The notes beneath the pieces were generated by a model that worked only from the letters and a program-made list of their open reading frames with translations, was not told the origin of the DNA and ran no database searches. Of a stretch of 64,000 nucleotides of DNA, positions 6,880 through 57,070 are shown piece after piece (position 1 is the first letter of the stretch; each line of letters begins with the position of its first letter). The position numbers were made by a program, and so were the translations under genes. This DNA is from Eledone cirrhosa (lineage: Eukaryota): positions 271,188,001 through 271,252,000 of the forward strand of contig OZ024742.1 in assembly GCA_964016885.1 (NCBI GenBank). The letters run 5' to 3'.

Positions 6880-7362
6880 GATCCAAATATATATGCTTAT
6901 AACTGATTTGAAACACTTGACAAGTTTTCTGGAGTATAATATCAATGATATTAAATAAATAGAAAAAAAAAATAGATATTAAATAAATAATAATAGATAT
7001 TAACTAAATATTAAATAAATAATAATAGATATTAAATAAATAGAAAAAAAAATGAGTAATCCATATTTATTCTATTATATATATATATATTTCAATGGTA
7101 CCAAAACTTTTGTACGCCCTCATCAGATAAAATACAAAAGTTTGTTTTATAAATATTGACATATCCAGGAAGAAGATCTTAACGGTTCAAGTTTTTCCTG
7201 GATAGTAAAAAGAAAGAAGGGAAAGAGAAAAAAGTCAAATATTTCAAATTATTATGATGAGTATACCTCAACCTCATTTGCATACTCATCTTAATAATTT
7301 GAAATATTTGACTTTTCTTCTCATTCCCTTCCTTCCTTTTACTATCCAGGAAAAACTTGAAC
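6880..7362 (-). mobile_element. Solo Naiad-like pseudo-LTR with HHR (7068-7134) and inverted duplication (~7186-7265 / 7282-7361)
   Basis: Similar to 3220-3490. The minus strand carries a CTGATGA...GAAATATAT HHR. The fold-back arms enclose ATTTGCAT at 7276-7283. Confidence 0.7.
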
Positions 7363-8415: not shown

Positions 8416-8464
8416 GATTCCTGATGATTTCTAAAGAATGAAACAGTTCTAGTCCTGTAGAATC
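8416..8464 (+). ncRNA. Compact type I hammerhead ribozyme inside an inverted duplication 8357-8482 (degenerate homologue 57137-57185, minus)
   Basis: GATTC-CTGATGA-TTTCTAAAGAAT-GAA-ACAG(ttctagtc)CTGT-A-GAATC. Confidence 0.75.
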
Positions 8465-8969: not shown

Positions 8970-10442
8970 AAATTGAAACAAAATGAAAACGAAATTTCAT
9001 TTCTCACTCTTAGTATGGCACTTACTTAAATGTAAGTATGCATGTATACGTACATACATATATGTATACAGACGTACACTAGCATGCACATATATATATA
9101 TATATATATACATATATATATACATATGCATACAGGTACACATACATATATGCACGTATCAGTTTAGCGGCGCTTATTATAACGTCGCTTTGTTCGTTTG
9201 TAAACAAACTGAACAGCCTGAATTTATGCCATACGGTGTTAAGGCAACCACGTCACCTTTTTGTTCAACACTGACACAGGAACGATGTACTAGTTTCAAG
9301 CTTGTTAGCTATCATCAGCACCGTTTACCCATCTGCCAGATAGTTGAACGTTCGAAAGTATATACTTTCCTTATGAAAATTAACGGCTGAGCAGCCTAAT
9401 TTGCATATTGAGTGAGTTAAATCGGTCAGGCATACCGAAAACGATAAATTGTATATGCATGCTACTATACGTCTGTATACATATATGTATGTACGTATAC
9501 ATGCATACTTACATTTAAGTAAGTGCCATACTAAGAGTGAGAAATGAAATTTCGTTTTCATTTTGTTTCAATTTATCGTTTTCGGTATGCCTGACCGATT
9601 TAACTCACTCAATATGCAAATTAGGCTGCTCAGCCGTTAATTTTCATAAGGAAAGTATATACTTTCGAACGTTCAACTATCTGGCAGTTGGGTAAACGGT
9701 GCTGATGATAGCTAACAAGCTTGAAACTAGTACATCGTTCCTGTGTCAGTGTTGAACAAAAAGGTGACGTGGTTGCCTTAACACCGTATAGCATAAATTC
9801 AGGCTGTTCAGTTTGTTTACAAACGAACAAAGCGACGTTATAATAAGCGCCGTTAAACTGATACGTGCATATATGTATGTGTACCTGTATGCATATGTAT
9901 ATATATATGTATATAAATATATATATATGCATGCTACTATACGTCTGTATACATATACATGCATACTTACATTTAAGTAAGTGCCATACTAAGAGTGAGA
10001 AATGAAATTTCGTTTTCATTTTGCTTCAATTTATCGTTTTCAGTATGCCTGACCGATTTAACTCACTCAATATGCAAATTAGGCTGCTCAGCCGTTAATT
10101 TTCATAAGGAAAGTATATACTTTCGAACGTTCAACTATCTGGCAGATGGGTAAACGGTGCTGATGATAGCTAACAAGCTTGAAACTAGTACATCGTTCCT
10201 GTGTCAGTGTTGAACAAAAACGTGACGTGGTTGCCTTAACACCGTATGGCATAAATTCAGGCTGTTCAGTTTGTTTACAAACGAACAAAGCGACGTTATA
10301 ATAAGCGCCGTTAAACTGATACGTGCATATATGTATGTGTACCTGTATGCATATGTATATATATATGTATATATATATATATATAATCATGCTACTATAC
10401 GTCTGTATACATATATGTATGTACGTATACATGCATACTTAC

Positions 10443-13398: not shown

Positions 13399-13830
13399 AC
13401 CCACACACACACACATACACACACATACACACATACACACACACACACACACAGAGATACAGACACATACACAAACACATGATTACGCACGTGCTCAAGT
13501 AGAGCTCTTTTTAAAAAGGTTTTGTTTTCCATTTCAGGCAGACGCGCTCATGCACTTTTCTAAAAGAATATAATACACAAAACGACAGCACCAATAGTTT
13601 TCCAAGAGATGTCAACATGAATGGACCTGTTATTTTTATCTAAAGAAATGTTTTCCAATTCCATCCCACCGGTCCCCTCAATCTATTTTATTTCTCATTC
13701 TTTCTTCTGATGAAGGACTAGCGTCCGAAACATTACGACCCTCTTCCTGCTATATCAAGCATTAACCTAATATATACATTCCATATACTGTACCGATTGT
13801 GTTGTTATTTCTGTTTACCTTTTACACACA
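10503..13830 (+). mobile_element. Decayed Penelope-like retroelement (RT pseudogene), 3' UTR with CA microsatellite and HHR-like core at 13707-13731
   Basis: Frameshifted motifs include GLRFIPT, KPADKGG-AVVVW, PGRPIVS, MGT..PNYA, YIDD, YSQFFRLCRLCS and PVARHF. The 3' end has CTGATGA-A-GGAC(TAGC)GTCC-GAAAC. Confidence 0.85.
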
Positions 13831-13845
13831 TATATATATATATAT

Positions 13846-14173
13846 ACTAACTCACTCGATATGCAAATTAGGCTGCTCAGCCGTTAAAATGGATAAGGAA
13901 AGTATATTCTTTCAAACGTTCAATCATCTGGCAGAAAGGTATACGATGCTGACGATAGCTAATAAGCTTGAAACTAGTACATCGTTCCTGTGTTAGTGTT
14001 GACCAAAGGGGCGACGATGGTTGCCTGAACAATGTACGGCGTAATTCGGGCTGTTTGTCTGTTTACAAACAAATAAACCGAACATTATAATAAATGTTCG
14101 GTAAACCGATACGTACATGTATATATATATATGTGTGCATGTATATATGTATGCATGTATATATACATACATG

Positions 14174-19371: not shown

Positions 19372-20324
19372 AATGTATATATATACATACATAGAGTAGT
19401 ATGTATATATATATATACATACATGCACACATATATATACATGTATGTATGGATTCACCGAACATTTATTATAATGCTCGGTTTGTTTGTAAACAATCGT
19501 CCCGAATTAAGCCGTACAGTGTTTAGCAACCATCGTTGCCCTTTTGTTCAACACTGACAAAGGAACGATGTACTAGTTTCATGCTTATTAGCTATTGTTA
19601 GCTCCGTGTACCTTCATGCCAGATGATTGAACGTCTGAAAGTATTTACTTACCTTATGCATATTAACGGCAACCTAATTTGCATATCGAGTGAGTTAATC
19701 GGCCGGATGCACCGAGAACTATAAATGGAAAAAATGAAACGAAATGTCATGTGTCACTCTTACTACGGCTGTTACTTAAATATAAGTATGTAAACGTACA
19801 TACATATATGTATACAGACGTACAGTAGTATGTATATGTATACATACATGCACATATATATATATATATGTACGTATGGATTCACCGAACATTTATTATA
19901 ATAGAGTGAGAAATTAACTCACTCGATATGCATATTAGGCTGCTCAGCCGTTAATATGCATAAGGAAAGTATATACTTTCAGACGTTCAATCATCTGGCA
20001 CGAAGGTATACAGTGTTGGCGATATCTAAAAATGCTTGAAACTAGTACATCTTTCCTTTGTCAGTGTTGAACAATAGGGCAACGATGGTTGCTAAACACT
20101 GTGCGGCTTAATTCGGGATGTTTGTTTAGAAACAAACCGAGCATTATAATAAGTGTTCGGTGAATCCATACGTACATGTATATATATGTGTGCATGTACG
20201 TATATATATATATATATATACATACTACTGTACGTCTGTATACATATATGTATGTACGTATACATACTTATATTTAAGTAACAGCCGTAATAAGAATGAG
20301 AAATGAAATTTCGTTTCATTTTTT

Positions 20325-20874: not shown

Positions 20875-20926
<52 letters not shown>

Positions 20927-22127
20927 AATTAAATTAAAAATGTACATCCACATATGTATACTGAAATACTAGTATGCATATGAATACACACACGTGTACA
21001 TATGTAGATGTACCGAGTTTTTCACTGGACACTTTACTGTGAGTGTCCAGCTATTCTGTATGTAAACACACAGACAAACCGGTTTTTAGAGTCATACTGG
21101 TTTTCGAGGAAACACCTTTCCTCTATTCTCCAGAAAGCCAGACAAGGAATATTGGACTAGTTTCGATGTTGTTACATCTCATCAGCAATATTTACCTATC
21201 TTCCGGCCTTTCTAGAGAATCGTAAAAGAACATATCGTTATATGCTTTTTCTATGAAAATTAGTAGTGGGCAGACTAATTTGCATAGAGCGTGAGTACGT
21301 ACCGGTTCAGCGGAGACGATAAAAACAAATAACGAAACGAAATTAAATTTCGTTTCGTTTGTAACTCACTTTTGTATGACTGACGCTTAAACAATTAAAT
21401 TAAAAATGTACATCCACATATGTATACTGAAATACTAGTATGCATATGAATACACACACGTGTACGTATGTAGATGTACCGAGTTTTTCACTGGACACTT
21501 TACTGTGAGTGTCCAGCTATTCTGTATGTAAACACACAGACAAACCGGTTTTTAGAGTCATACTGGTTTTCGAGGAAACACCTTTCCTCTATTCTCCAGA
21601 AAGCCAGACAAGGAATATTGGACTAGTTTCGATGTTGTTACATCTCATCAGCAATATTTACCTATCTTCCGGCCTTTCTAGAGAATCGTAAAAGAACATA
21701 TCGTTATATGCTTTTTCTATGAAAATTAGTAGTGGGCAGACTAATTTGCATAGAGCGTGAGTACGTACCGGTTCAGCGGAGACGATAAAAACAAATAACG
21801 AAACGAAATTAAATTTCGTTTCGTTTGTAACTCACTTTTGTATGACTGACGCTTAAACAATTAAATTAAAAATGTACATCCACATATGTATACTGAAATA
21901 CTAGTATGCATATGAATACACACACGTGTACATATGTAGATGTACCGAGTTTTTCACTGGACACTTTACTGTGAGTGTCCAGCTATTCTGTATGTAAACA
22001 CACATTTAATTGTAAACACACATTTAATTGTTTAAGCGTCAGTCATACAAAAGTGAGTTACAAACGAAACGAAATTTAATTTCGTTTCGTTATTTGTTTT
22101 TATCGTCTCCGCTGAACCGGTACGTAC

Positions 22128-22185
22128 TCACGCTCTATGCAAATTAGTCTGCCCACTACTAATTTTCATAGAAAAAGCATATAAC
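22128..22185 (+). promoter_or_regulatory. Putative snRNA-type upstream promoter block (octamer + PSE-like + TATA-like) in each unit
   Basis: ATGCAAAT at 22137-22144 is followed by TAATTTTCATAGAAAAAGCATATA. Family B conserves this as ATGCAAAT...TAATTTTCATAAGGAAAGTATATA while most of the rest of the unit diverges. Confidence 0.5.
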
Positions 22186-22229
22186 GATATGTTCTTTTAC
22201 GATTCTCTAGAAAGGCCGGAAGATAGGTA

Positions 22230-22274
22230 AATATTGCTGATGAGATGTAACAACATCGAAACTAGTCCAATATT
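22230..22274 (+). ncRNA. Type I hammerhead ribozyme, family A (representative copy)
   Basis: AATATTG-CTGATGA-GATGT(AACA)ACATC-GAA-AC(TA)GT-C-CAATATT. The GUC cleavage site is predicted after 22267. Helix I extends to 22203-22296. Confidence 0.92.
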
Positions 22275-25200
22275 CCTTGTCTGGCTTTCTGGAGAATAGA
22301 GGAAAGGTGTTTCCTCGAAAACCAGTATGACTCTAAAAACCGGTTTGTCTGTGTGTTTACATACAGAATAGCTGGACACTCACAGTAAAGTGTCCAGTGA
22401 AAAACTCGGTACATCTACATATGTACACGTGTGTGTATTCATATGCATACTAGTATTTCAGTATACATATGTGGATGTACATTTTTAATTTAATTGTTTA
22501 AGCGTCAGTCATACAAAAGTGAGTTACAAACGAAACGAAATTTAATTTCGTTTCGTTATTTGTTTTTATCGTCTCCGCTGAACCGGTACGTACTCACGCT
22601 CTATGCAAATTAGTCTGCCCACTACTAATTTTCATAGAAAAAGCATATAACGATATGTTCTTTTACGATTCTCTAGAAAGGCCGGAAGATAGGTAAATAT
22701 TGCTGATGAGATGTAACAACATCGAAACTAGTCCAATATTCCTTGTCTGGCTTTCTGGAGAATAGAGGAAAGGTGTTTCCTCGAAAACCAGTATGACTCT
22801 AAAAACCGGTTTGTCTGTGTGTTTACATACAGAATAGCTGGACACTCACAGTAAAGTGTCCAGTGAAAAACTCGGTACATCTACATATGTACACGTGTGT
22901 GTATTCATATGCATACTAGTATTTCAGTATACATATGTGGATGTACATTTTTAATTTAATTGTTTAAGCGTCAGTCATACAAAAGTGAGTTACAAACGAA
23001 ACGAAATTTAATTTCGTTTCGTTATTTGTTTTTATCGTCTCCGCTGAACCGGTACGTACTCACGCTCTATGCAAATTAGTCTGCCCACTACTAATTTTCA
23101 TAGAAAAAGCATATAACGATATGTTCTTTTACGATTCTCTAGAAAGGCCGGAAGATAGGTAAATATTGCTGATGAGATGTAACAACATCGAAACTAGTCC
23201 AATATTCCTTGTCTGGCTTTCTGGAGAATAGAGGAAAGGTGTTTCCTCGAAAACCAGTATGACTCTAAAAACCGGTTTGTCTGTGTGTTTACATACAGAA
23301 TAGCTGGACACTCACAGTAAATGTCCAGTGAAAAACTCGGTACATCTACATATGTACACGTGTGTGTATTCATATGCATACTAGTATTTCAGTATACATA
23401 TGTGGATGTACATTTTTAATTTAATTGTTTAAGCGTCAGTCATACAAAAGTGAGTTACAAACGAAACGAAATTTAATTTCGTTTCGTTATTTGTTTTTAT
23501 CGTCTCCGCTGAACCGGTACGTACTCACGCTCTATGCAAATTAGTCTGCCCACTACTAATTTTCATAGAAAAAGCATATAACGATATGTTCTTTTACGAT
23601 TCTCTAGAAAGGCCGGAAGATAGGTAAATATTGCTGATGAGATGTAACAACATCGAAACTAGTCCAATATTCCTTGTCTGGCTTTCTGGAGAATAGAGGA
23701 AAGGTGTTTCCTCGAAAACCAGTATGACTCTAAAAACCGGTTTGTCTGTGTGTTTACATACAGAATAGCTGGACACTCACAGTAAAGTGTCCAGTGAAAA
23801 ACTCGGTACATCTACATATGTACACGTGTGTGTATTCATATGCATACTAGTATTTCAGTATACATATGTGGATGTACATTTTTAATTTAATTGTTTAAGC
23901 GTCAGTCATACAAAAGTGAGTTACAAACGAAACGAAATTTAATTTCGTTTCGTTATTTGTTTTTATCGTCTCCGCTGAACCGGTACGTACTCACGCTCTA
24001 TGCAAATTAGTCTGCCCACTACTAATTTTCATAGAAAAAGCATATAACGATATGTTCTTTTACGATTCTCTAGAAAGGCCGGAAGATAGGTAAATATTGC
24101 TGATGAGATGTAACAACATCGAAACTAGTCCAATATTCCTTGTCTGGCTTTCTGGAGAATAGAGGAAAGGTGTTTCCTCGAAAACCAGTATGACTCTAAA
24201 AACCGGTTTGTCTGTGTGTTTACATACAGAATAGCTGGACACTCACAGTAAAGTGTCCAGTGAAAAACTCGGTACATCTACATATGTACACGTGTGTGTA
24301 TTCATATGCATACTAGTATTTCAGTATACATATGTGGATGTACATTTTTAATTTAATTGTTTAAGCGTCAGTCATACAAAAGTGAGTTACAAACGAAACG
24401 AAATTTAATTTCGTTTCGTTATTTGTTTTTATCGTCTCCGCTGAACCGGTACGTACTCACGCTCTATGCAAATTAGTCTGCCCACTACTAATTTTCATAG
24501 AAAAAGCATATAACGATATGTTCTTTTACGATTCTCTAGAAAGGCCGGAAGATAGGTAAATATTGCTGATGAGATGTAACAACATCGAAACTAGTCCAAT
24601 ATTCCTTGTCTGGCTTTCTGGAGAATAGAGGAAAGGTGTTTCCTCGAAAACCAGTATGACTCTAAAAACCGGTTTGTCTGTGTGTTTACATACAGAATAG
24701 CTGGACACTCACAGTAAAGTGTCCAGTGAAAAACTCGGTACATCTACATATGTACACGTGTGTGTATTCATATGCATACTAGTATTTCAGTATACATATG
24801 TGGATGTACATTTTTAATTTAATTGTTTAAGCGTCAGTCATACAAAAGTGAGTTACAAACGAAACGAAATTTAATTTCGTTTCGTTATTTGTTTTTATCG
24901 TCTCCGCTGAACCGGTACGTACTCACGCTCTATGCAAATTAGTCTGCCCACTACTAATTTTCATAGAAAAAGCATATAACGATATGTTCTTTTACGATTC
25001 TCTAGAAAGGCCGGAAGATAGGTAAATATTGCTGATGAGATGTAACAACATCGAAACTAGTCCAATATTCCTTGTCTGGCTTTCTGGAGAATAGAGGAAA
25101 GGTGTTTCCTCGAAAACCAGTATGACTCTAAAAACCGGTTTGTCTGTGTGTTTACATACAGAATAGCTGGACACTCACAGTAAAGTGTCCAGTGAAAAAC

Positions 25201-26805
25201 TCGGTACATCTACATATGTACACGTGTGTGTATTCATATGCATACTAGTATTTCAGTATACATATGTGGATGTACATTTTTAATTTAATTGTTTAAGCGT
25301 CAGTCATACAAAAGTGAGTTACAAACGAAACGAAATTTAATTTCGTTTCGTTATTTGTTTTTATCGTCTCCGCTGAACCGGTACATACTCACGCTCTATG
25401 CAAATTAGTCTGCCCACTACTAATTTTCATAGAAAAAGCATATAACGATATGTTCTTTTACGATTCTCTAGAAAGGCCGGAAGATAGGTAAATATTGCTG
25501 ATGAGATGTAACAACATCGAAACTAGTCCAATATTCCTTGTCTGGCTTTCTGGAGAATAGAGGAAAGGTGTTTCCTCGAAAACCAGTATGACTCTAAAAA
25601 CCGGTTTGTCTGTGTGTTTACATACAGAATAGCTGGACACTCACAGTAAAGTGTCCAGTGAAAAACTCGGTACATCTACATATGTACACGTGTGTGTATT
25701 CATATGCATACTAGTATTTCAGTATACATATGTGGATGTACATTTTTAATTTAATTGTTTAAGCGTCAGTCATACAAAAGTGAGTTACAAACGAAACGAA
25801 ATTTAATTTCGTTTCGTTATTTGTTTTTATCGTCTCCGCTGAACCGGTACGTACTCACGCTCTATGCAAATTAGTCTGCCCACTACTAATTTTCATAGAA
25901 AAAGCATATAACGATATGTTCTTTTACGATTCTCTAGAAAGGCCGGAAGATAGGTAAATATTGCTGATGAGATGTAACAACATCGAAACTAGTCCAATAT
26001 TCCTTGTCTGGCTTTCTGGAGAATAGAGGAAAGGTGTTTCCTCGAAAACCAGTATGACTCTAAAAACCGGTTTGTCTGTGTGTTTACATACAGAATAGCT
26101 GGACACTCACAGTAAAGTGTCCAGTGAAAAACTCGGTACATCTACATATGTACACGTGTGTGTATTCATATGCATACTAGTATTTCAGTATACATATGTG
26201 GATGTACATTTTTAATTTAATTGTTTAAGCGTCAGTCATACAAAAGTGAGTTACAAACGAAACGAAATTTAATTTCGTTTCGTTATTTGTTTTTATCGTC
26301 TCCGCTGAACCGGTACGTACTCACGCTCTATGCAAATTAGTCTGCCCACTACTAATTTTCATAGAAAAAGCATATAACGATATGTTCTTTTACGATTCTC
26401 TAGAAAGGCCGGAAGATAGGTAAATATTGCTGATGAGATGTAACAACATCGAAACTAGTCCAATATTCCTTGTCTGGCTTTCTGGAGAATAGAGGAAAGG
26501 TGTTTCCTCGAAAACCAGTATGACTCTAAAAACCGGTTTGTCTGTGTGTTTACATACAGAATAGCTGGACACTCACAGTAAAGTGTCCAGTGAAAAACTC
26601 GGTACATCTACATATGTACACGTGTGTGTATTCATATGCATACTAGTATTTCAGTATACATATGTGGATGTACATTTTTAATTTAATTGTTTAAGCGTCA
26701 GTCATACAAAAGTGAGTTACAAACGAAACGAAATTTAATTTCGTTTCGTTATTTGTTTTTATATATATATACATATATATATATACATATATATATACAT
26801 ATATG

Positions 26806-45207: not shown

Positions 45208-48200
45208 TTGAATATCCTTAATTTTCGAGATAATATCTCTTCTTCAGAAGGATGTAAAGGGGTTAATCCAGTGTTCTAATTAGCTTTGCAAGTCAGAAAT
45301 AGAATGAAATGTATATACTCTTTCCTGTCAGCATGAATTGGATTAACTCCTTTACTTCCACTGAAGAAGAGATATTATCTCGAAAATTAAGGATATTCAA
45401 ATAAATTTATGGTAAAAGACTAATTCTCAGCGATATCTTTTGCATTTGTATTTAATTTCTATATCCATACCTGCATAGTTCTGGCCTTCTAACTCCAAAC
45501 GTTTATATTTCACTACGCAATGTTTCAAGTAAACTACAATTTCCTTCTTTCCTTACGCCTCAGCCAGGCCCAGTTTACAACTGTAAAGAAACTCTTCCAG
45601 CTATCTGAAAGGCACGCCAAAGCTGGCTGAGAAATAAACTTCCTCAAACGGTGCCTGAATAACAATATCATCCCCAAAACTATCAAAATCCTGCACCTAC
45701 CAACATGCTTCAAATCGCCAGGCCTCAAACGTTCACTTAGCTACATACACAAACACTGCCTAAGAAAACTTCTAATACAACTACACCTCACGCTACGACA
45801 ACACATACCGACAATTTCCAGCCTAGTACCACAACTCGCTGAAAACCCAGAACCTCTGCTCAGAGTAATTTCCACCGCTATAGACAAATCGCCGAGATTA
45901 CGAGAAACACCGCCTAAAGCAAAAATTTCTCAAACTCAGCAGGGCTGACCGTCCTAACAACAATCCAACTCTAAGCTCCAAAAGAGGCGAACAAGACGGT
46001 ACCAACATCGAACCTAGCGGTGCCCCGACCAACAACACACCTGACACAAAACACCTCGTCACAGAATTGACAGGATCCCTCTCCCGAGATGAACTAGACC
46101 TCCTCGGCCTGGGTCCCAAGTTCATATTAAAACAGAGATTGGACGACAAATTATGGCTCGACATAGAAAAGAATTTCTGTCGGGCCACCTACCAGCTAAA
46201 ATGGATATCGACCCTCGGCAACAAAAACAGGGAATCTAACACATCCAGATTCCCGATATACAAACGGGATCACCCACTCTGTTCACCGCCTGCCACCGCA
46301 AGCTGGAAGAAAAATTATCGAGGTTAAACATTCCGTATTTGACATCTGACGGAAACAGAATAAGATAGCCCCAAAATACTCCAGGACGCAACAACTCGCC
46401 CTGAAGATCCTGCGGAATAGGGAACTATTAAACTTACCATCTGACAAAGGTCAAGACTTTTGTGTCATCTCTCAAGCCACATACAACAACCTAGCCTTTG
46501 AACACTTAAGCGACAACGAACTACATACAGAGGTCCTGGACATAACTGCAGACCAGATCTAAAAACAGGCCAACTCCATCTGGTTTGACATCTGTAGTAG
46601 AAGACAACTCCCAAATAAATGTAAGTCCAATTACACCACTAGTAATAGAAGACTGCCCAATTTCTATCACCTCATCAAGACCCACAAGAATAGTACTAAG
46701 ACACGAATAAGACCCATCGTCTCTAGCATAGAAGGGCCTCTATACAAAATCTCCTGGCTCCTCTCCCAGGTCCTCAAGCCTCTACTCTCCACCTTTCCCG
46801 GACATGGCAGTAGCTCCGATGAGGTCATACGTAGACTACACCAACTCCAGCCAGAACAACTTAAACACAATAGATACGCCTTTAGCCTCGACGTTGTCTC
46901 CCTCTATACTACAGTTCCCGCTCATCCAGCTGTCGATTTATTGACGGAATGCGTGGTCGCCGAAGACCTCCACTGCTACGGCCTCCATCCGACCGACATA
47001 AATCAGCTTTTGTCCTTCACAGTGAACAACACGTACTTCACCTTCGACCACCACACATACAGACAGACAATGGGATTACCCATAGGATCTAGCCTATCGG
47101 GCCTGCTGGCCATCACTTATATGAATCAGCTGGAATGTCGAGCCCTCTACATCTGCCATACCTATACCTTATTCACCCTATATGTAGATGACATACTCAT
47201 CCTTTCATCATCCCGTGGGTCTTATACGTGTCTTAGTACTATTCTTGTGGGTCTTGATGAGGTGATAGAAAGTGGGCAGTATGCCATTTCTAGTGGTGTA
47301 ATTGGACTTACATGACATTCTCCAGCATGGACGCACATATAAAGTTAAGCATGGAAGACCCGGATGACCGCGGATCCCAATCCCTATTGGACTTCCAACT
47401 CAGGGTTACAGAGGAAGGCGACATCCACATCTGCTTCTATAAAAAAGCCGCAAGCAGGGACCTCTTCGTACATTTCAAATCAGCCCTCCCAGTCAGCGCT
47501 AAATTCAGATACATAAGGAACGAACTAACACGTATCCGGAACAAATGCACCGACACAAGAAACCGAGATACACACATCACACATTTCCTGGAAGTACTTG
47601 AACTGACTGAACGGATACCCGACCTCCACCACGAACCGTGCCAGAACCAACAGAGGACACCACACTCGATGCACTAACAGGTGCTTCCTGAAGCTCCCAA
47701 ACGTCAGCGACGAAACAACAACAGCCATCCGCAGAGCTATCAGACGAGAAGGACTACGTATCCAGCTAGCCCACTCAGGACCTTCTCTACGCGGACAGAT
47801 AACCAAGAGACACTCCACCAGACATGACAACCGTTGCACGCTCGTCAACTGCCCCATCAACGGCACAGATCTATGGCACCAGGCTTACGTCGTATACAGA
47901 TTAGAGTACGAGCAATTTCTACATAGGAAGCACCACCAGACCACTTCACATTAGAATAAAAGAACACCTCGACACTAATGCTTCCTCATTTAAGAAACAC
48001 CTAGTGAAATGCAAAAACACCGACAAAGACATAATAGGTAGGATAGAAGCTAAGGAAAGAAACCTCGGCAATCTTAGAATTAAAGAAGCACTAATTATAG
48101 ACAAAACGCAACCATAAATCAATAACAGACTAGAACTCAACGCCCAATGTTTAACATAATAGAGCACCTAGCCCCACACTTACACCTCCACGTATCTTGA

Positions 48201-50816: not shown

Positions 50817-52787
50817 TTTCACTACATATATACATATATATATATACATATACACATACACACACATGCACATATATTTTTTTGTATTGCACCATAGAGC
50901 ATGTGTGTTTACGTGTGTCATTGTGTTTATATGTGGGTAGAGATGTGTGCTGATGTAGGTATGTATGTTGACGTGTGTATGTTGTGGGTTCGTCTTAGGG
51001 AGAAGTGTTTAGACGGGGTCCGTATTTGTTAATGAAGTAAGATTCCTTGCTGATGCGCTGGGTGTGGGTGGCATTATCTTTAAATTTGTAGAGGGGAAAG
51101 ATTCTGAAGTTGGGATGATTTGGGGCGGCGCAGGTATCAATGTGTTCACTCAGTGGTATTTTCCTGTATTCCCGTATTTTAATTTGGGATCTATGGACAG
51201 TCATGCGTTGGCGGAGGCTGTTTTTGGTCTGGCCTATGTATTGTTCTCGACAACCTGAACAAGTTAATACATATATTAAATTTTCCGATGCACATGTGAA
51301 ATTGTGTTTTACTATAAAACGTTGTCCATCTTTGAAATAGAATTCCGAACCCTCTATTAGGTTGATGCAAATGCCACAGTTGGGTCTATCGCATTTTTTT
51401 ACTGTGGGTTTCGTTGTTGTGGTTGGCAGTACTTTGGCATGTGTTAAGATGTTTTTCATTGACTTGGATTGTCTTTTGCTCTTTATGATATCGTGTGTTC
51501 GTAGAATTTGGTTCATTCTATGGTCCTTTTTCAATACAGGGATGTTCTGGAGGATGGTGTCAAAGGCCTCGTTGTTGAGGGGGTTGTGTGTGGAGATGTA
51601 TGGAAGAGCTTTTAGTTTTGGTTGATTTACTTTAGGGTGTCTAAGGTCCTGGGTACTGAGTTTTAGGGCACGTTGGATTCCATTGTCAATTAGTGATGCA
51701 GGGTAGTCCCTGCCTATGAGTGTGTCCTTTAGTTCTTGTAGCCGTAAGTAGCAGATGTTTTTATTGGAGACTATAGTACAGATTCTCTTGGCTAAGTTGT
51801 AGGGAATATTAATTTTAACGTGTCTAGGGTGGCAAGAGTTGAAGGGGAGGTATTGCTTGGAGTCTGTGGGCTTGTAGTATATGTCTGTTTCTATTTTTTT
51901 GTTATGGATCTTAATGAGGATGTCGAGGAAGGGGAGTTGTTGATGGCTGTATTCCATCGTGAAGTTAATATTTGTGTTGAGCCCATTTATAAGGGTGTGA
52001 AATTCTTTAAGTTTTCCGATGTTTTCGTGCCAAAGGATGAAGCAGTCATCAAGATATCGCTTCCAGTTCCTTTCAATGTGTAAGTGGAGGGTGTTTCCAA
52101 ATTTGTTTAGGACTTTAGTGTAGAGGGTGATTTCCAGGTATCCCATGACTAGATTGGCATACGTAGGGGCTGTTTTCGTTCCCATAGCGGTCCCAGATTT
52201 CTGCCTGTAGGGTTTGTTATTGAAAACGAAGTAATTGTTCTCCAAGATAAATTTGAGTCCCTCTATCACGAATTCTTTTTTGATGCGTTGTGGGAGTTCA
52301 TTGTGGAAGTTATCCAGCCAGAATTGGATAGCTTCTATTCCTAGGTTGTGGGGGATGTTGGAGTATAGGTTGACTACATCGAACGTCACTAGTAGGGTTT
52401 GTTCAGAAAGTGGCATATTAGGGAGGTGATTGAGCATATCTAGGTCGTCCCTTATATAGCTTTTGATGTGCTTGAGGAAGGGTTTGAGAAGGGTATCAAT
52501 GAAGTTGCTAAGACGGTGCGTTTCGCAAGCGGGGCCTGCTATTATTGGTCTTAATTTGAGATCATTGGGTGAGGGGACATTGATGACTATGTCAGATCTG
52601 AGCAAACAGCACGGACACTCTATCTCAAAATTATTTTTGAAAAGCATTTAGAAATGCGCAACCGGTAAAAACATAAAAACTTAAAACCACAACTGATACT
52701 AACCCATACAATCACTAATACTCTTTTATTCCTAATTAAACCATTTTTCAACTGTGAACAATTTGTCAGCATTTTCTATTCCGTTTA

Positions 52788-55599: not shown

Positions 55600-57070
55600 G
55601 TAATTGAGACGGTTGGGTTTTCAATCTTCAGTCTGCGAAATTCCGGGACGGTGTCGTGTGTTGCTTACTCGAGAATTCCAGCAGAAGCAGGAGAGTGTAA
55701 CAACAGATGTTCGTTTCTGGCTGAATAACGTTATAAAGGTAGTGCATCCCTACTCTGCTCTCTGTCGGAATTTAATATAGGCGAACATATATAGTTTACA
55801 GTCCTATGTACATCGGATGATTAGCCTTATTTGCATATTGTGCTATCGACCGGCAGGAGCTGACTATAGATTTAACGTTTTAGCTCCGACATAGCTATAT
55901 ACATATAACTATATGTATTTTGTATATATAATGATATGCGGTATATTTACGGATGAACATTTGAAAGCCTATTGTATGAATTTTGGAAGCTGATGGCTAG
56001 CATCCCTCTATTTTCTGCTAGAATGCGCTAGCTGTCAAAACTGTATATTTTCGCCTATATTAAATACAGTAAGAGAGCATCTTCTGGGTGCACTAATTGA
56101 ATAACTGACATCAGACGAACGATCAGCGATAGTAACTCTCTCCTACTTCAGCTTGAATTCGCTAGATGGCGCTTTTAAATGTTTATAAATGTAGCGTATA
56201 TCATTAGATATACGAAATTCACATAGTTATATGTATGCAGCTAACTTGGAGGGAAAATCTTAATTGTACTTTACATTTCATACCGCTTATTCAGTTCACA
56301 TGCAAATGAGGCTAATAAACAAATCTAGATAGTCGAAAAATAAATATAATTTAGTCTGTCCCAAATTAGAGCATAGAACAGGATAAGCAATTATCCGATG
56401 ATGGTTAGAGCTAGAAACGCATTGGCAGTTGACTCCGGTACTTATGTTGGAATCCGCTAAACGGCGTCAGGCAGCAGCTTTTCAATATTCATAGCTAAAA
56501 AGTTATCCAAATGTTTATTTTTAAAGATACCGTATATCTTTTGATATATATGTATATAAATGTAATCTGAGTTTTTCGAGTATTAATAATAATATTCGAT
56601 TCGTTTGCAAACATGCAAACAACCTATTTTATAAGCCATGTCAGTAGAATGAGTCCCTCATTCTCGCTCTTGTGTTGGCCTGCAAACAAAACTGCAGAGA
56701 CTAATGTTTCTGGGTGATAACACTTCATCAGTGCATTTTAATGCATACATGCCAACTGTCAAAGCTAGTGCAAATAAATGATATCTGAAATATTCAGTGA
56801 CATATCAGCCTGCTTTGCATATTAGCAGACTCGCTGACCAGTCAGATATGCATATTAGCAGATCCACTGATAAGCCAGATTTGCATATCAGTAGAAAAGC
56901 CAGTGAGTTTCATGAACACGAGCCATTAATGGCCGGCTTCGGCATATTCAAATGATTAACAACTAGTTATCGTTCTACATGGTTGAATACAATAAATATA
57001 ATCTGAGTTTTTCGAATATTAATAATAATATTCTATTCGTTTGCACCTATGCAAACAGCCTCTTTTATAT
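55600..57070. repeat. Cluster of old, diverged octamer/HHR repeat units (retrozyme relics)
   Basis: There are degenerate ~290-bp units in both orientations and a 70-bp direct repeat (56563-56630 / 56999-57068). HHR motifs lie at 56693-56735 (-) and ~56388-56425 (+). Confidence 0.6.

What the first reader, a model, noticed from the sequence alone, without database searches (positions are those of the whole stretch)
22128..22236. Each retrozyme unit carries its own octamer-led, snRNA-like upstream promoter
Seen: outside the HHR, the best-conserved block between families is ACTCAC.C...TATGCAAATTAG.CTGC.CA....TAATTTTCATA.GAAA.G.ATATA. The octamer starts 100 nt (A), 88 nt (B: 9614, 13861), 95 nt (56300) and ~89 nt (variant at 56820, minus) upstream of the HHR core. 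Known: ATGCAAAT is the POU/Oct site of snRNA promoters, and newt satellite 2 was reported to use octamer/PSE-type elements. Inference: a compact external promoter (octamer, ~20-nt spacer, PSE-like TTTCATA.GAAAG, TATA-like). Several T4-T5 runs per unit would stop Pol III, so full-unit transcripts would need snRNA-type Pol II or read-through.
Basis: partly seen in the sequence, partly recalled or inferred. Interest (0 to 1): 0.75.

Follow-up and report, generated by a model that had tools for sequence, protein, structure and literature searches.

The report
Hammerhead repeats carrying a U6-like promoter
Each unit of these hammerhead-ribozyme tandem repeats carries, just upstream of the ribozyme, a 12-base box plus TATA box that match the host's own U6, U6atac and RNase MRP gene promoters, so each unit likely drives its own transcription, although no RNA data were available to confirm this.

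Summary
The block ACTCAC..TATGCAAATTAG..TAATTTTCATA..TATA is present in every unit. It is the best-conserved 30-nt stretch across the A/B subfamilies (23/30 invariant, against 22/30 for the ribozyme). It sits 88-100 nt upstream of CUGAUGA.

I located the host's snRNA genes. U6, U6atac and RNase MRP (6 of 6 promoter-bearing loci) carry ATG[C/G][A/T]AAT[T/G]AG at -76 to -78 and TATA at -30. U1, U2 and U5 (0 of 24 loci), 7SK and RNase P do not; most use an ATCAGT element at -56 to -67 instead.

The repeats carry the same box with TATA 42-45 nt downstream, against 46-48 in the host genes. A third, unrelated family (C) has the same layout. An HMM built only from host promoters ranks the repeat blocks as the top 17 hits in the window.

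The "octamer" is the proximal box itself, not a distal enhancer. The proposed PSE (TAATTTTCATA) is the inverted-repeat arm of that box.

Caveats: the spacing is 1-6 nt shorter than in host genes, each unit has four T4-T5 runs, and there is no expression evidence. Rating: new variant of a known kind (precedent: newt satellite 2).

The parts
22022..26762 (+). Family A tandem array, 466-bp unit x 10.2, each unit with promoter-like block plus type-I hammerhead
   Evidence: TRF; 10 cores on +; 10 octamers on +
20922..22004 (-). 2.3 inverted family A units, joined head-to-head (divergent) to the + array
22126..22131 (+). ACTCAC, invariant in all A/B subfamilies; also upstream of the boxes in family E; pairs with an upstream GTGAG in the circular MFE folds of A and B
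22136..22148 (+). Box TATGCAAATTAGT, which matches the host U6/U6atac/MRP box ATG[C/G][A/T]AAT[T/G]AG
22158..22171 (+).
22180..22185 (+). TATA-like box TATAAC, 43 nt after the start of the box
22210..22211 (+). Predicted (not observed) transcription start, 30-31 nt after TATA as in host genes, on a G/A, about 9 nt before the Rfam hammerhead match
   Evidence: inference
22219..22290 (+). Type-I hammerhead with minimal helix III (core 22237-22262, cleavage predicted after C22267)
   Evidence: Hammerhead_HH9, 38.9 bits, E 1.9e-8, below gathering score 52
22064..22101 (+). Hairpin (ACGAAACGAAATTTAATTTCGTTTCGT) followed by a T5 run, about 25 nt before ACTCAC; a counterpart exists in B; terminator-like (inferred)
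9492..10415 (+). Family B, 458-bp unit x 2, boxes at 9614 and 10072, TATATAC at +42, core at +88
9318..9440 (-). Inverted partial B unit (box at 9399-9406, core beginning at 9318 on the minus strand)
13850..14120 (+). Solo B copy that starts at ACTCAC and is flanked by (TA)n; core mutated (CTGACGA)
19520..19696 (-). Degenerate B copy (box intact, no TATA or core match)
56288..56560 (+). Family C copy: ATGCAAATGAGG, TATAAT at +45, degenerate core CCGATGA at +95
55676..55848 (-). Family D, read by eye as an inverted diverged C copy: ATGCAAATAAGG, TATATATG at +43, no intact core
56650..56905 (-). Family E copy: ACTCAC, three direct boxes (ATATGCAAAT / ATATGCATAT / ATATGCAAAG), an ATCAGTGGATCT element, hammerhead-like core at 56732

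Best explanation
Each repeat unit carries a copy of the host's U6-class promoter signature (a 12-nt octamer-containing box and a TATA box), and this is likely a working external promoter that would start transcription about 13-27 nt upstream of the hammerhead core. What is shown: the box, the TATA box, their spacing and their position relative to the ribozyme are conserved across three diverged repeat families, and they match the upstream regions of the host's U6, U6atac and RNase MRP genes. What is inferred: the host factors that serve those genes, probably with RNA polymerase III, bind the block and initiate about 30 nt after TATA, at about 22210 in family A. The nascent RNA would then fold the hammerhead and cleave off a short leader. 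A transcript that reaches the next unit's ribozyme would release a unit-length RNA that contains the whole promoter block. In this way an upstream promoter, which a retroposed linear transcript normally loses, would be copied along with the element. Because each unit has four T4-T5 runs, most Pol III transcripts would be expected to stop inside the unit, plausibly at the conserved hairpin-plus-T-run before the next block. Unit-length RNA would then need read-through or another polymerase. The choice of polymerase is the weakest step.
For: (1) Host comparison. The box ATG[C/G][A/T]AAT[T/G]AG starts at -76 to -78 and TATA at -30 in 6 of 6 promoter-bearing loci: U6 L001-L004, U6atac L035, MRP L044. 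It is found in 0 of 24 U1/U2/U5 loci and in neither 7SK nor RNase P. (2) Repeat families. A, B, C and D carry ATGCAAAT[T/G/A]AG[T/G] with TATA[A/T] 43, 42, 45 and 43 nt downstream; most other family C copies also show TATA about 43 nt after the box (read by eye). A second family E copy has TATATTTT at about +45 (L039 flank, read by eye). (3) An HMM built only from 5 host promoters (-82 to -18) and run on both strands of the 64-kb window gives repeat blocks as its top 17 hits (E 0.013-0.14). These are 12 A, 2 tandem B, 1 inverted partial B, 1 degenerate B and 1 solo B. (4) Differential conservation: the block has 23/30 invariant columns against 15% overall among 8 A/B subfamily representatives. 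(5) Family C shares nothing visible with A/B apart from the box, the TATA and the ribozyme core, and lacks the inverted repeat, yet keeps box, about 43 nt, TATA, about 50 nt, CUGAUGA. ATGCAAAT is exact in 7 of 12 aligned copies, has one mismatch in 2, and is truncated or unalignable in 3. (6) TATA+30 lands on A/G in A, B, C and D, and 13-27 nt 5' of the core in A, B, C and E, so it lies just outside helix I (sequence). (7) Specificity control: a different, Penelope-like hammerhead family has no octamer-like motif within 250 nt upstream in 0 of 20 loci. Among 19 hand-picked A/B loci, 18 have the octamer at the canonical distance. (8) Abundance: 7,866 + 7,699 A/B-type ribozyme matches genome-wide, with the reversed-pattern control at 0.
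Against: (1) Box-to-TATA spacing is 42-45 nt in the repeats against a tight 46-48 nt in all six host promoters. In other organisms the spacing in snRNA-type promoters is critical (general knowledge). (2) Each unit has four runs of T4 or longer: A has T5, T5, T4, T4 and B has four T4. This is not depleted relative to shuffles (mean 3.5-3.6). Host U6, U6atac, MRP, 7SK and RNase P have no internal run of T4 or longer and end in T5-T10. (3) Beyond the box and TATA, the spacer shows no significant similarity to host promoters: in 20 comparisons the best were 8/2000 and 37/2000 shuffles. Single HMM hits are only marginal (E 0.013 or higher). (4) In A and B the block is an inverted repeat and folds as a hairpin in the circular MFE structures of both, so an RNA-level constraint could add to its conservation. 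(5) In the one 495-nt contig of run X4 (a differently coded organism), 6 of the 9 listed differences fall in 22146-22212. These include position 10 of the box and TATAA to TATAG. The octamer itself is intact. (6) The copies sampled are young and related, and 19 of them were hand-picked from the first 100 listed on one contig. (7) Two host Pol III genes (7SK, RNase P) do not use the box, so it is not a simple polymerase marker.
Confidence: 0.6

Rival explanations
1. This is the first reader's model: the octamer binds a POU/Oct-type activator and the unit is transcribed by RNA polymerase II from an snRNA-type or ordinary promoter, as reported for newt satellite 2. That would allow full-unit transcripts despite the T-runs.
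For: Four T4-T5 runs per unit, not depleted, fit Pol II better than Pol III. Host Pol II snRNA genes also have a TATA-like box near -30, so TATA does not mark Pol III here. Family E carries ATCAGTGGATCT, which resembles the host U1/U2/U5 element, between its boxes. The newt satellite 2 promoter is described as snRNA-type and Pol II in a citing passage (PMC2220036).
Against: 0 of 24 host U1/U2/U5 loci carry the box within 350 nt upstream, and ATCAGT is absent from the + strand of A and B units. The only host genes with the box (U6, U6atac, MRP) end in T5-T10 runs and are Pol III genes in all animals studied (general knowledge). The proposed PSE-like TTTCATA.GAAAG has no counterpart in host snRNA genes.
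Confidence: 0.2
2. The block is conserved mainly for an RNA-level role: a hairpin in the unit-length or circular RNA needed for stability, ligation or reverse-transcription priming. On this view its likeness to host promoters is coincidental.
For: In A and B the box and TAATTTTCATA form an imperfect inverted repeat and a local hairpin in the circular MFE folds of both families. ACTCAC pairs with an upstream GTGAG in both. An older B subfamily has an even better palindrome, TATGCAAATTA...TAATATGCATA.
Against: Families C and D keep the box and the box-to-TATA spacing without any inverted repeat. Family E has three direct, not inverted, copies of the box. The stems are conserved in sequence, not only in pairing. 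An RNA hairpin does not predict a TATA box at a fixed distance, nor a match to U6/U6atac/MRP upstream regions.
Confidence: 0.12
3. The block is an inert relic. On this view an ancestral element captured a U6-class promoter once, and the copies now depend on read-through transcription from flanking genes, as a 2020 review proposed for retrozymes in general.
For: [quoted passage not shown] The spacing is off by 1-6 nt from the host genes.
Against: The block is the most conserved part of the unit across subfamilies, on a par with the ribozyme. The box-TATA-ribozyme geometry persists in families that have otherwise diverged beyond recognition. That is not expected of a relic.
Confidence: 0.08

Closest known systems
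Newt satellite 2 (type-I hammerhead tandem repeat with an snRNA-type promoter; Coats, Zhang and Epstein 1994, known here only through the citing passage in PMC2220036)
   Same: A tandem repeat of a few hundred bp with a type-I hammerhead, in which each unit contains its own snRNA-gene-like promoter including an octamer.
   Different: The newt promoter is described as driving Pol II. Here the match is to the host's U6/U6atac/MRP class (box at about -73 to -75 of the predicted start, plus TATA) and not to the host's U1/U2/U5 class. The host is a different, unnamed 3-Gb genome. No transcription data exist here.
Metazoan non-LTR retrozymes (Cervera and de la Pena 2020, PMC7229834; review PMC7761336)
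   Same: Type-I hammerhead in short, AT-rich, non-coding tandem repeats present in thousands of copies. Penelope-like elements are present as candidate helpers.
   Different: In the 2020 paper the word 'promoter' occurs only for T7 constructs (term search). The review states that these elements seem to harbour no promoters. These units carry a conserved promoter-like module.
Type-3 (external) Pol III promoters of U6, 7SK, H1 and MRP genes
   Same: An upstream proximal element plus a TATA box at -30; this host's U6, U6atac and MRP genes show exactly that arrangement.
   Different: The repeat spacing is 1-6 nt shorter. The transcribed region contains T4-T5 runs. The promoter lies inside a repeat that would be copied with its transcript.
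Schistosome Sm-alpha hammerhead satellite and SINEs (Ferbeyre et al. 1998, seen only as cited in PMC2220036)
   Same: A hammerhead-bearing, high-copy repeat with its own Pol III promoter.
   Different: Those elements use an internal, tRNA-type promoter that is transcribed and so inherited trivially (general knowledge). Here the promoter is external to the predicted start and would be inherited only through multimeric or circular RNA.
Plant LTR retrozymes with an LTR promoter (PMC9695139, PMC12029980; abstracts only)
   Same: A retrozyme that carries its own promoter close to the hammerhead.
   Different: Plant elements have LTRs, type-III hammerheads and a different promoter type.

Membership tests
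Metazoan non-LTR retrozyme (type-I hammerhead tandem repeat) | Type-I hammerhead with intact catalytic core | tested here: met
   Hammerhead_HH9, 38.9 bits, E 1.9e-8, full-length match 22219-22290 with a shortened helix III; below the gathering score of 52, so it was absent; 12 A-type cores of CTGATGA..CGAAAC.
Metazoan non-LTR retrozyme (type-I hammerhead tandem repeat) | Short tandem repeats (a few hundred bp, dimers to multimers), low GC | tested here: met
   466 bp x 10.2 and 458 bp x 2. GC 0.36 and 0.35.
Metazoan non-LTR retrozyme (type-I hammerhead tandem repeat) | No protein-coding capacity | tested here: inconclusive
   the longest ATG ORF on a dimer is 50 aa in A and 129 aa in B; neither ORF was searched against any library.
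Metazoan non-LTR retrozyme (type-I hammerhead tandem repeat) | Expressed as unit-length circular RNA | not testable with these tools
   One search lists no RNA holder. laid contigs only, of unknown library kind.
Vertebrate/newt-type Pol II snRNA promoter (distal octamer + PSE + 3' box) | Proximal element matching the host's U1/U2/U5 element | tested here: not met
   ATCAGT lies at -56 to -59 in 13 of 24 host U1/U2/U5 loci by exact match (near variants in others by eye). It is absent from the + strand of A and B units. It is present only in family E.
Vertebrate/newt-type Pol II snRNA promoter (distal octamer + PSE + 3' box) | Octamer in a distal enhancer about 200 nt upstream | tested here: not met
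   The octamer lies 42-45 nt upstream of TATA, which is about 72-75 nt before the predicted start.
Vertebrate/newt-type Pol II snRNA promoter (distal octamer + PSE + 3' box) | 3' box directing end formation | not tested
   Host 3' flanks were only glanced at; no model was built.
Host U6-class promoter (U6, U6atac, RNase MRP of this genome) | Box ATG[C/G][A/T]AAT[T/G]AG | tested here: met
   exact in A, B and C; D has A at position 9; the host-only HMM ranks the blocks first.
Host U6-class promoter (U6, U6atac, RNase MRP of this genome) | TATA box 46-48 nt after the start of the box | tested here: inconclusive
   TATA is present but at 42-45 nt, which is 1-6 nt shorter than in any of the six host promoters.
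Host U6-class promoter (U6, U6atac, RNase MRP of this genome) | Start on a purine 30 nt after TATA | not testable with these tools
   A/G is present at TATA+30/31 in A, B, C and D, but no 5'-end data exist.
Host U6-class promoter (U6, U6atac, RNase MRP of this genome) | Transcribed region free of runs of T4 or longer, ending in T5-T10 | tested here: not met
   host genes have none internally; 4 runs per repeat unit, the first at 215 (A) or 281 (B) nt after the cleavage site.

The most novel reading that the evidence does not exclude
A 15,000-copy family of hammerhead repeats has taken over the host's U6-class external Pol III promoter and made it heritable. The ribozyme cuts unit-length RNA out of multimeric transcripts, so the upstream promoter travels inside the RNA intermediate. 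That would solve, in a new way, the problem SINEs solve with internal promoters. It would also overturn the view that metazoan retrozymes have no promoter. As a by-product, it defines a previously undescribed octamer-containing proximal element for U6, U6atac and MRP genes in this lineage.
Probability: 0.35. Interest if true: 0.75.

Novelty: new variant of a known kind. Interest (0 to 1): 0.6.

Why it matters
How metazoan retrozymes get transcribed is an open question. A 2020 review by the group that described them says they seem to have no promoter and depend on read-through (PMC7761336, passage seen). Here the most conserved non-ribozyme part of the unit matches the host's own U6/U6atac/MRP promoter signature, and it is placed so that transcription would begin just ahead of the ribozyme. 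If this is functional, every array of two or more units is an autonomous source of unit-length RNA. It would also show that an external snRNA-type promoter can be inherited by a retroelement through a circular or multimeric RNA. The prediction is precise: a start near 22210 that depends on the box and on TATA. It can be tested with standard 5'-end mapping and reporters. The host analysis also gives a first outline of snRNA promoter layout in this genome, with two classes of proximal element.

Tried and rejected
Expression evidence: the look-up of sequencing runs listed no RNA holder. Read laying on X1, X4, X5 and X6 returned only Logan contigs of unknown library kind, with no starts, ends or joints, so nothing can be said about transcription or start sites.

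Rfam at gathering thresholds found nothing in the window. The hammerhead appears only with the permissive threshold.

Spacer similarity: local alignments of the 40 nt after the box against five host promoters were not significant. An apparent likeness between family B and the MRP promoter (37/2000 shuffles, one of 20 tests) is therefore not claimed.

The 200 kb flanking the window gave no further hammerhead families; only A, B and C copies and one doubtful core at 8421 turned up.

The Rfam Hammerhead_1 search of the genome found a different, Penelope-like family, which I used as a negative control.

T-run depletion was tested and is absent.

Earlier notes of this scan: three look-ups, nothing found.

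Literature: searches for retrozyme promoters, cephalopod or mollusc hammerheads and mollusc U6 promoters returned no paper describing a promoter in metazoan retrozymes or this U6 box. This holds only for the library searched. Coats et al. 1994 is not held.

Full report
**What is at the coordinates.**

The finding lies in the first + strand unit of a tandem array of a 466-bp repeat: 22022-26762, 10.2 copies, 99% matches. The array is joined head-to-head to 2.3 inverted copies at 20922-22004.

Each unit contains CTGATGAGATGTAACAACATCGAAAC, with 12 copies in the window. With permissive thresholds Rfam aligns 22219-22290 end to end to Hammerhead_HH9 (38.9 bits, E 1.9e-8). That is below the gathering score of 52 because helix III is reduced to two pairs. 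This explains the empty result at gathering thresholds.

Units are AT-rich (GC 0.36). The longest ATG ORF on an A dimer is 50 aa.

A pattern for the A/B-type ribozyme matches 7,866 + 7,699 times in the 3.0-Gb genome, with the reversed control at 0. So these are abundant elements of the retrozyme type: type-I hammerheads in short tandem repeats.

**Check of the observation.**

The sequence reads ACTCAC-GCTC-TATGCAAATTAG-TCTGCCCACT-ACTAATTTTCATAG-AAAAAGCA-TATAAC.

- A: 100 nt.
- B: 88 nt (two tandem units and the solo copy at 13861).
- 56300: 95 nt.
- Variant at 56820(-): 88 nt.

ATGCAAAT occurs 26 times against 5.76 expected. Twenty of these lie in hammerhead-repeat copies, and the remaining six equal chance.

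I aligned 8 representatives of A and B subfamilies: 2 from the window and 6 picked from the first 100 genomic places listed. The most invariant 30-column window is ACTCAC..TATGCAAATTAG.. at 23/30. The ribozyme scores 22/30, and 15% of columns are invariant overall.

I located these genes in the genome with Rfam models and read 350 nt upstream of 46 loci:
- U6
- U1
- U2
- U5
- U6atac
- RNase MRP
- 7SK
- RNase P

Two promoter classes emerge.

- **Class 1.** Most loci have ATCAGT at -56 to -59 in U1, U2 and U5 genes. It lies at -64 in 7SK and -67 in RNase P. A TATA-like box sits near -30.
- **Class 2.** These loci have ATG[C/G][A/T]AAT[T/G]AG starting at -76 to -78 and TATA at exactly -30. This class includes all six promoter-bearing loci of U6 (two single genes and a tandem array), U6atac and RNase MRP.

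The class 2 box is found in 0 of the 24 U1/U2/U5 loci and in neither 7SK nor RNase P. The other 6 U6 and 8 U6atac hits lack the box-plus-TATA signature, and many sit in microsatellites or repeats; they look like retro-pseudogenes.

So in this genome the "octamer" is the core of a 12-nt proximal box specific to U6, U6atac and MRP.

**Match to the repeats.**

| Family | Box | TATA element | Offset from box start |
|---|---|---|---|
| A | ATGCAAATTAGT | TATAAC | +43 |
| B | ATGCAAATTAGG | TATATAC | +42 |
| C (56300) | ATGCAAATGAGG | TATAAT | +45 |
| D (55829, minus) | ATGCAAATAAGG | TATATATG | +43 |

Host genes have 46-48 nt.

I built an HMM from five host promoters only and ran it over both strands of the window. 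Its 17 best hits are all repeat blocks (12 A, 2 tandem B, 1 inverted partial B, 1 degenerate B, 1 solo B; E 0.013-0.14). An unrelated palindromic repeat at 7284 follows, and C and D come further down at E about 2.

In 264 kb (the window plus 100 kb on each side) the box occurs 27 times against 2.0 expected. Twenty-two of these have TATA at 40-50 nt, and 21 of those have a hammerhead-like core within 150 nt.

**Independent families.**

Family C is an old dispersed family with 391 first-look candidates; the copies shown are 71-78% identical to the window copy. I aligned 11 copies with the window copy. Most copies read TATGCAAATGAGGC, then TATATAT about 43 nt after the box start, then CCTGATGATGGCCAGAGCCAGAAA about 50 nt further on.
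- ATGCAAAT is exact in 7 of 12 copies.
- It has one mismatch in 2 copies.
- It is truncated or unalignable in 3 copies.

By eye, C shares nothing else with A/B and has no inverted repeat. D appears to be an inverted, diverged C copy.

Family E (56650-56905, minus) has ACTCAC, three direct copies of the box and an ATCAGTGGATCT element. A second E copy, next to a U6atac pseudogene, has TATATTTT at about +45 (L039, read by eye).

With TATA+30 as the start, as in all host genes, transcription would begin 27 (A), 16 (B), about 20 (C) and about 13 (E) nt before CUGAUGA. That is just outside helix I, and on A/G in A, B, C and D.

As a negative control I used the hammerheads that Rfam's Hammerhead_1 model finds in the genome. 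They belong to a different, Penelope-like family, and none of the 20 loci has an octamer-like motif within 250 nt upstream.

TAATTTTCATA is not a PSE. It is the 3' arm of an imperfect inverted repeat of the box: CTATGCAAATTAG against CTAATTTTCATAG. An older B subfamily has TAATATGCATA there.

The host's ATCAGT element has no counterpart on the + strand of A or B.

The octamer is not distal. It lies about 72-75 nt before the predicted start.

**Points against, and the polymerase question.**

- **Spacing.** The box-to-TATA distance is 1-6 nt shorter than the tight host range.
- **T-runs.** Each unit has four runs of T4 or longer, at 215, 296, 362 and 394 nt after the cleavage site in A and at 281, 287, 305 and 367 in B. 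This is as many as shuffles give. By contrast, the host's U6, U6atac, MRP, 7SK and RNase P RNAs have no internal run and end in T5-T10. A Pol III transcript would therefore probably stop inside the unit.
- **Possible terminator.** One T-run follows a hairpin that both A and B have, shortly before ACTCAC (22064-22101). This looks like a terminator, which is my inference. Unit-length RNA, the only form that would carry the promoter, would need read-through or another polymerase.
- **Polymerase marker.** TATA-like boxes also occur in host Pol II snRNA genes, and two Pol III genes do not use the box. Assigning Pol III therefore rests only on which host genes carry the box.
- **Limits of the similarity.** Beyond the box and TATA, the spacers are not significantly similar to host promoters.
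- **RNA-level constraint.** In A and B the block folds as a hairpin in circular MFE structures, so an RNA-level constraint may contribute to its conservation.
- **Cross-organism contig.** In a single contig from a differently coded organism (X4), 6 of the 9 listed differences fall in 22146-22212, including one in the box and one in the TATA.
- **Expression.** No RNA run was available.

**Comparison with what is known.**

Newt satellite 2 is the precedent. A citing passage describes it as having an snRNA promoter that drives Pol II, and describes the schistosome satellite as having a Pol III promoter (PMC2220036). The original paper is not held.

The paper that defined metazoan retrozymes uses "promoter" only for T7 constructs (term search). 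[quoted passage not shown] Plant retrozyme LTR promoters were reported later (abstracts).

My searches found no report of a U6-class promoter in metazoan retrozymes or of this box in U6 genes. This holds only for the library searched.

**Verdict.**

The block is real. It is under constraint at least as strong as the ribozyme's, and it matches the host's U6/U6atac/MRP promoter signature in three diverged repeat lineages.

I rate a unit-borne snRNA-type promoter at 0.6, and within that Pol III as the more likely but unproven polymerase. Rivals:
- Pol II with an Oct-type activator: 0.2.
- Mainly an RNA structure: 0.12.
- Inert relic: 0.08.

It is a new variant of a known kind.

Noticed in passing
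window 50995-52647 (-), also 46563-47315 (+): An open frame with reverse transcriptase plus a C-terminal GIY-YIG endonuclease (Pfam RVT_1 E 8e-7, GIY-YIG E 3e-6), the domain order of Penelope-like elements. A second RT fragment lies nearby. It is a candidate helper for the hammerhead repeats.
   Followed up: partly
window 13707-13731 (+); loci L086-L105: A second kind of hammerhead (CTGATGA..GTCC..GAAACATT..) belongs to a dispersed, Penelope-like family. Copies often end in TTAA followed by (TA)n. The 20 best Rfam Hammerhead_1 hits of the genome are of this family and lack any octamer upstream.
   Followed up: partly
window about 22004-22022 and about 9440-9490; many places: Arrays are often built as minus copies followed by plus copies (divergent, head-to-head) and are flanked by (TA)n. 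PMC8557442 (passages) describes tandem/inverted structures and microsatellite insertion bias for Penelope-like elements, which would fit mobilisation by them.
   Followed up: no
loci L011-L046 (host snRNA genes): Host snRNA promoter layout. ATCAGT lies at -56 to -59 in U1/U2/U5 but at -64 and -67 in the Pol III genes 7SK and RNase P. AATTAAAT lies near -85 in U1/U2/U5. A distal TTACCTCCCTTG-like element lies about 240-285 nt upstream of U1, U2, two U6 genes and RNase P. Spacing might set polymerase choice.
   Followed up: partly
window 22146, 22170, 22184, 22212 (run X4): The one contig from a differently coded organism differs from the window mostly by A-to-G changes clustered in the hairpin-forming promoter block. 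This could be strain divergence, or RNA editing if the run is RNA; the library kind is unknown.
   Followed up: no
window 7267-7284 (-); L085 9561-9572; L006 (275 nt upstream of a U6 copy): Another dispersed repeat carries ATGCAAATGAGG, in one copy with TATA at +46, but has no hammerhead. It was not classified.
   Followed up: no
G000 contig C19, about 31.78-31.84 Mb (L003, L004): A tandem array of at least 30 U6 genes with a period of about 1.8 kb. They have a variant 5' stem (GTACTCGCTACGG / GTACTAGCTACGG) and a variant box (ATGCTAATTAGC, itself a 10-bp palindrome).
   Followed up: no
L039 (U6atac-like copy on C19): A U6atac-like sequence lies directly next to an inverted family E fragment. 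It is probably a retro-pseudogene inserted beside the repeat.
   Followed up: no
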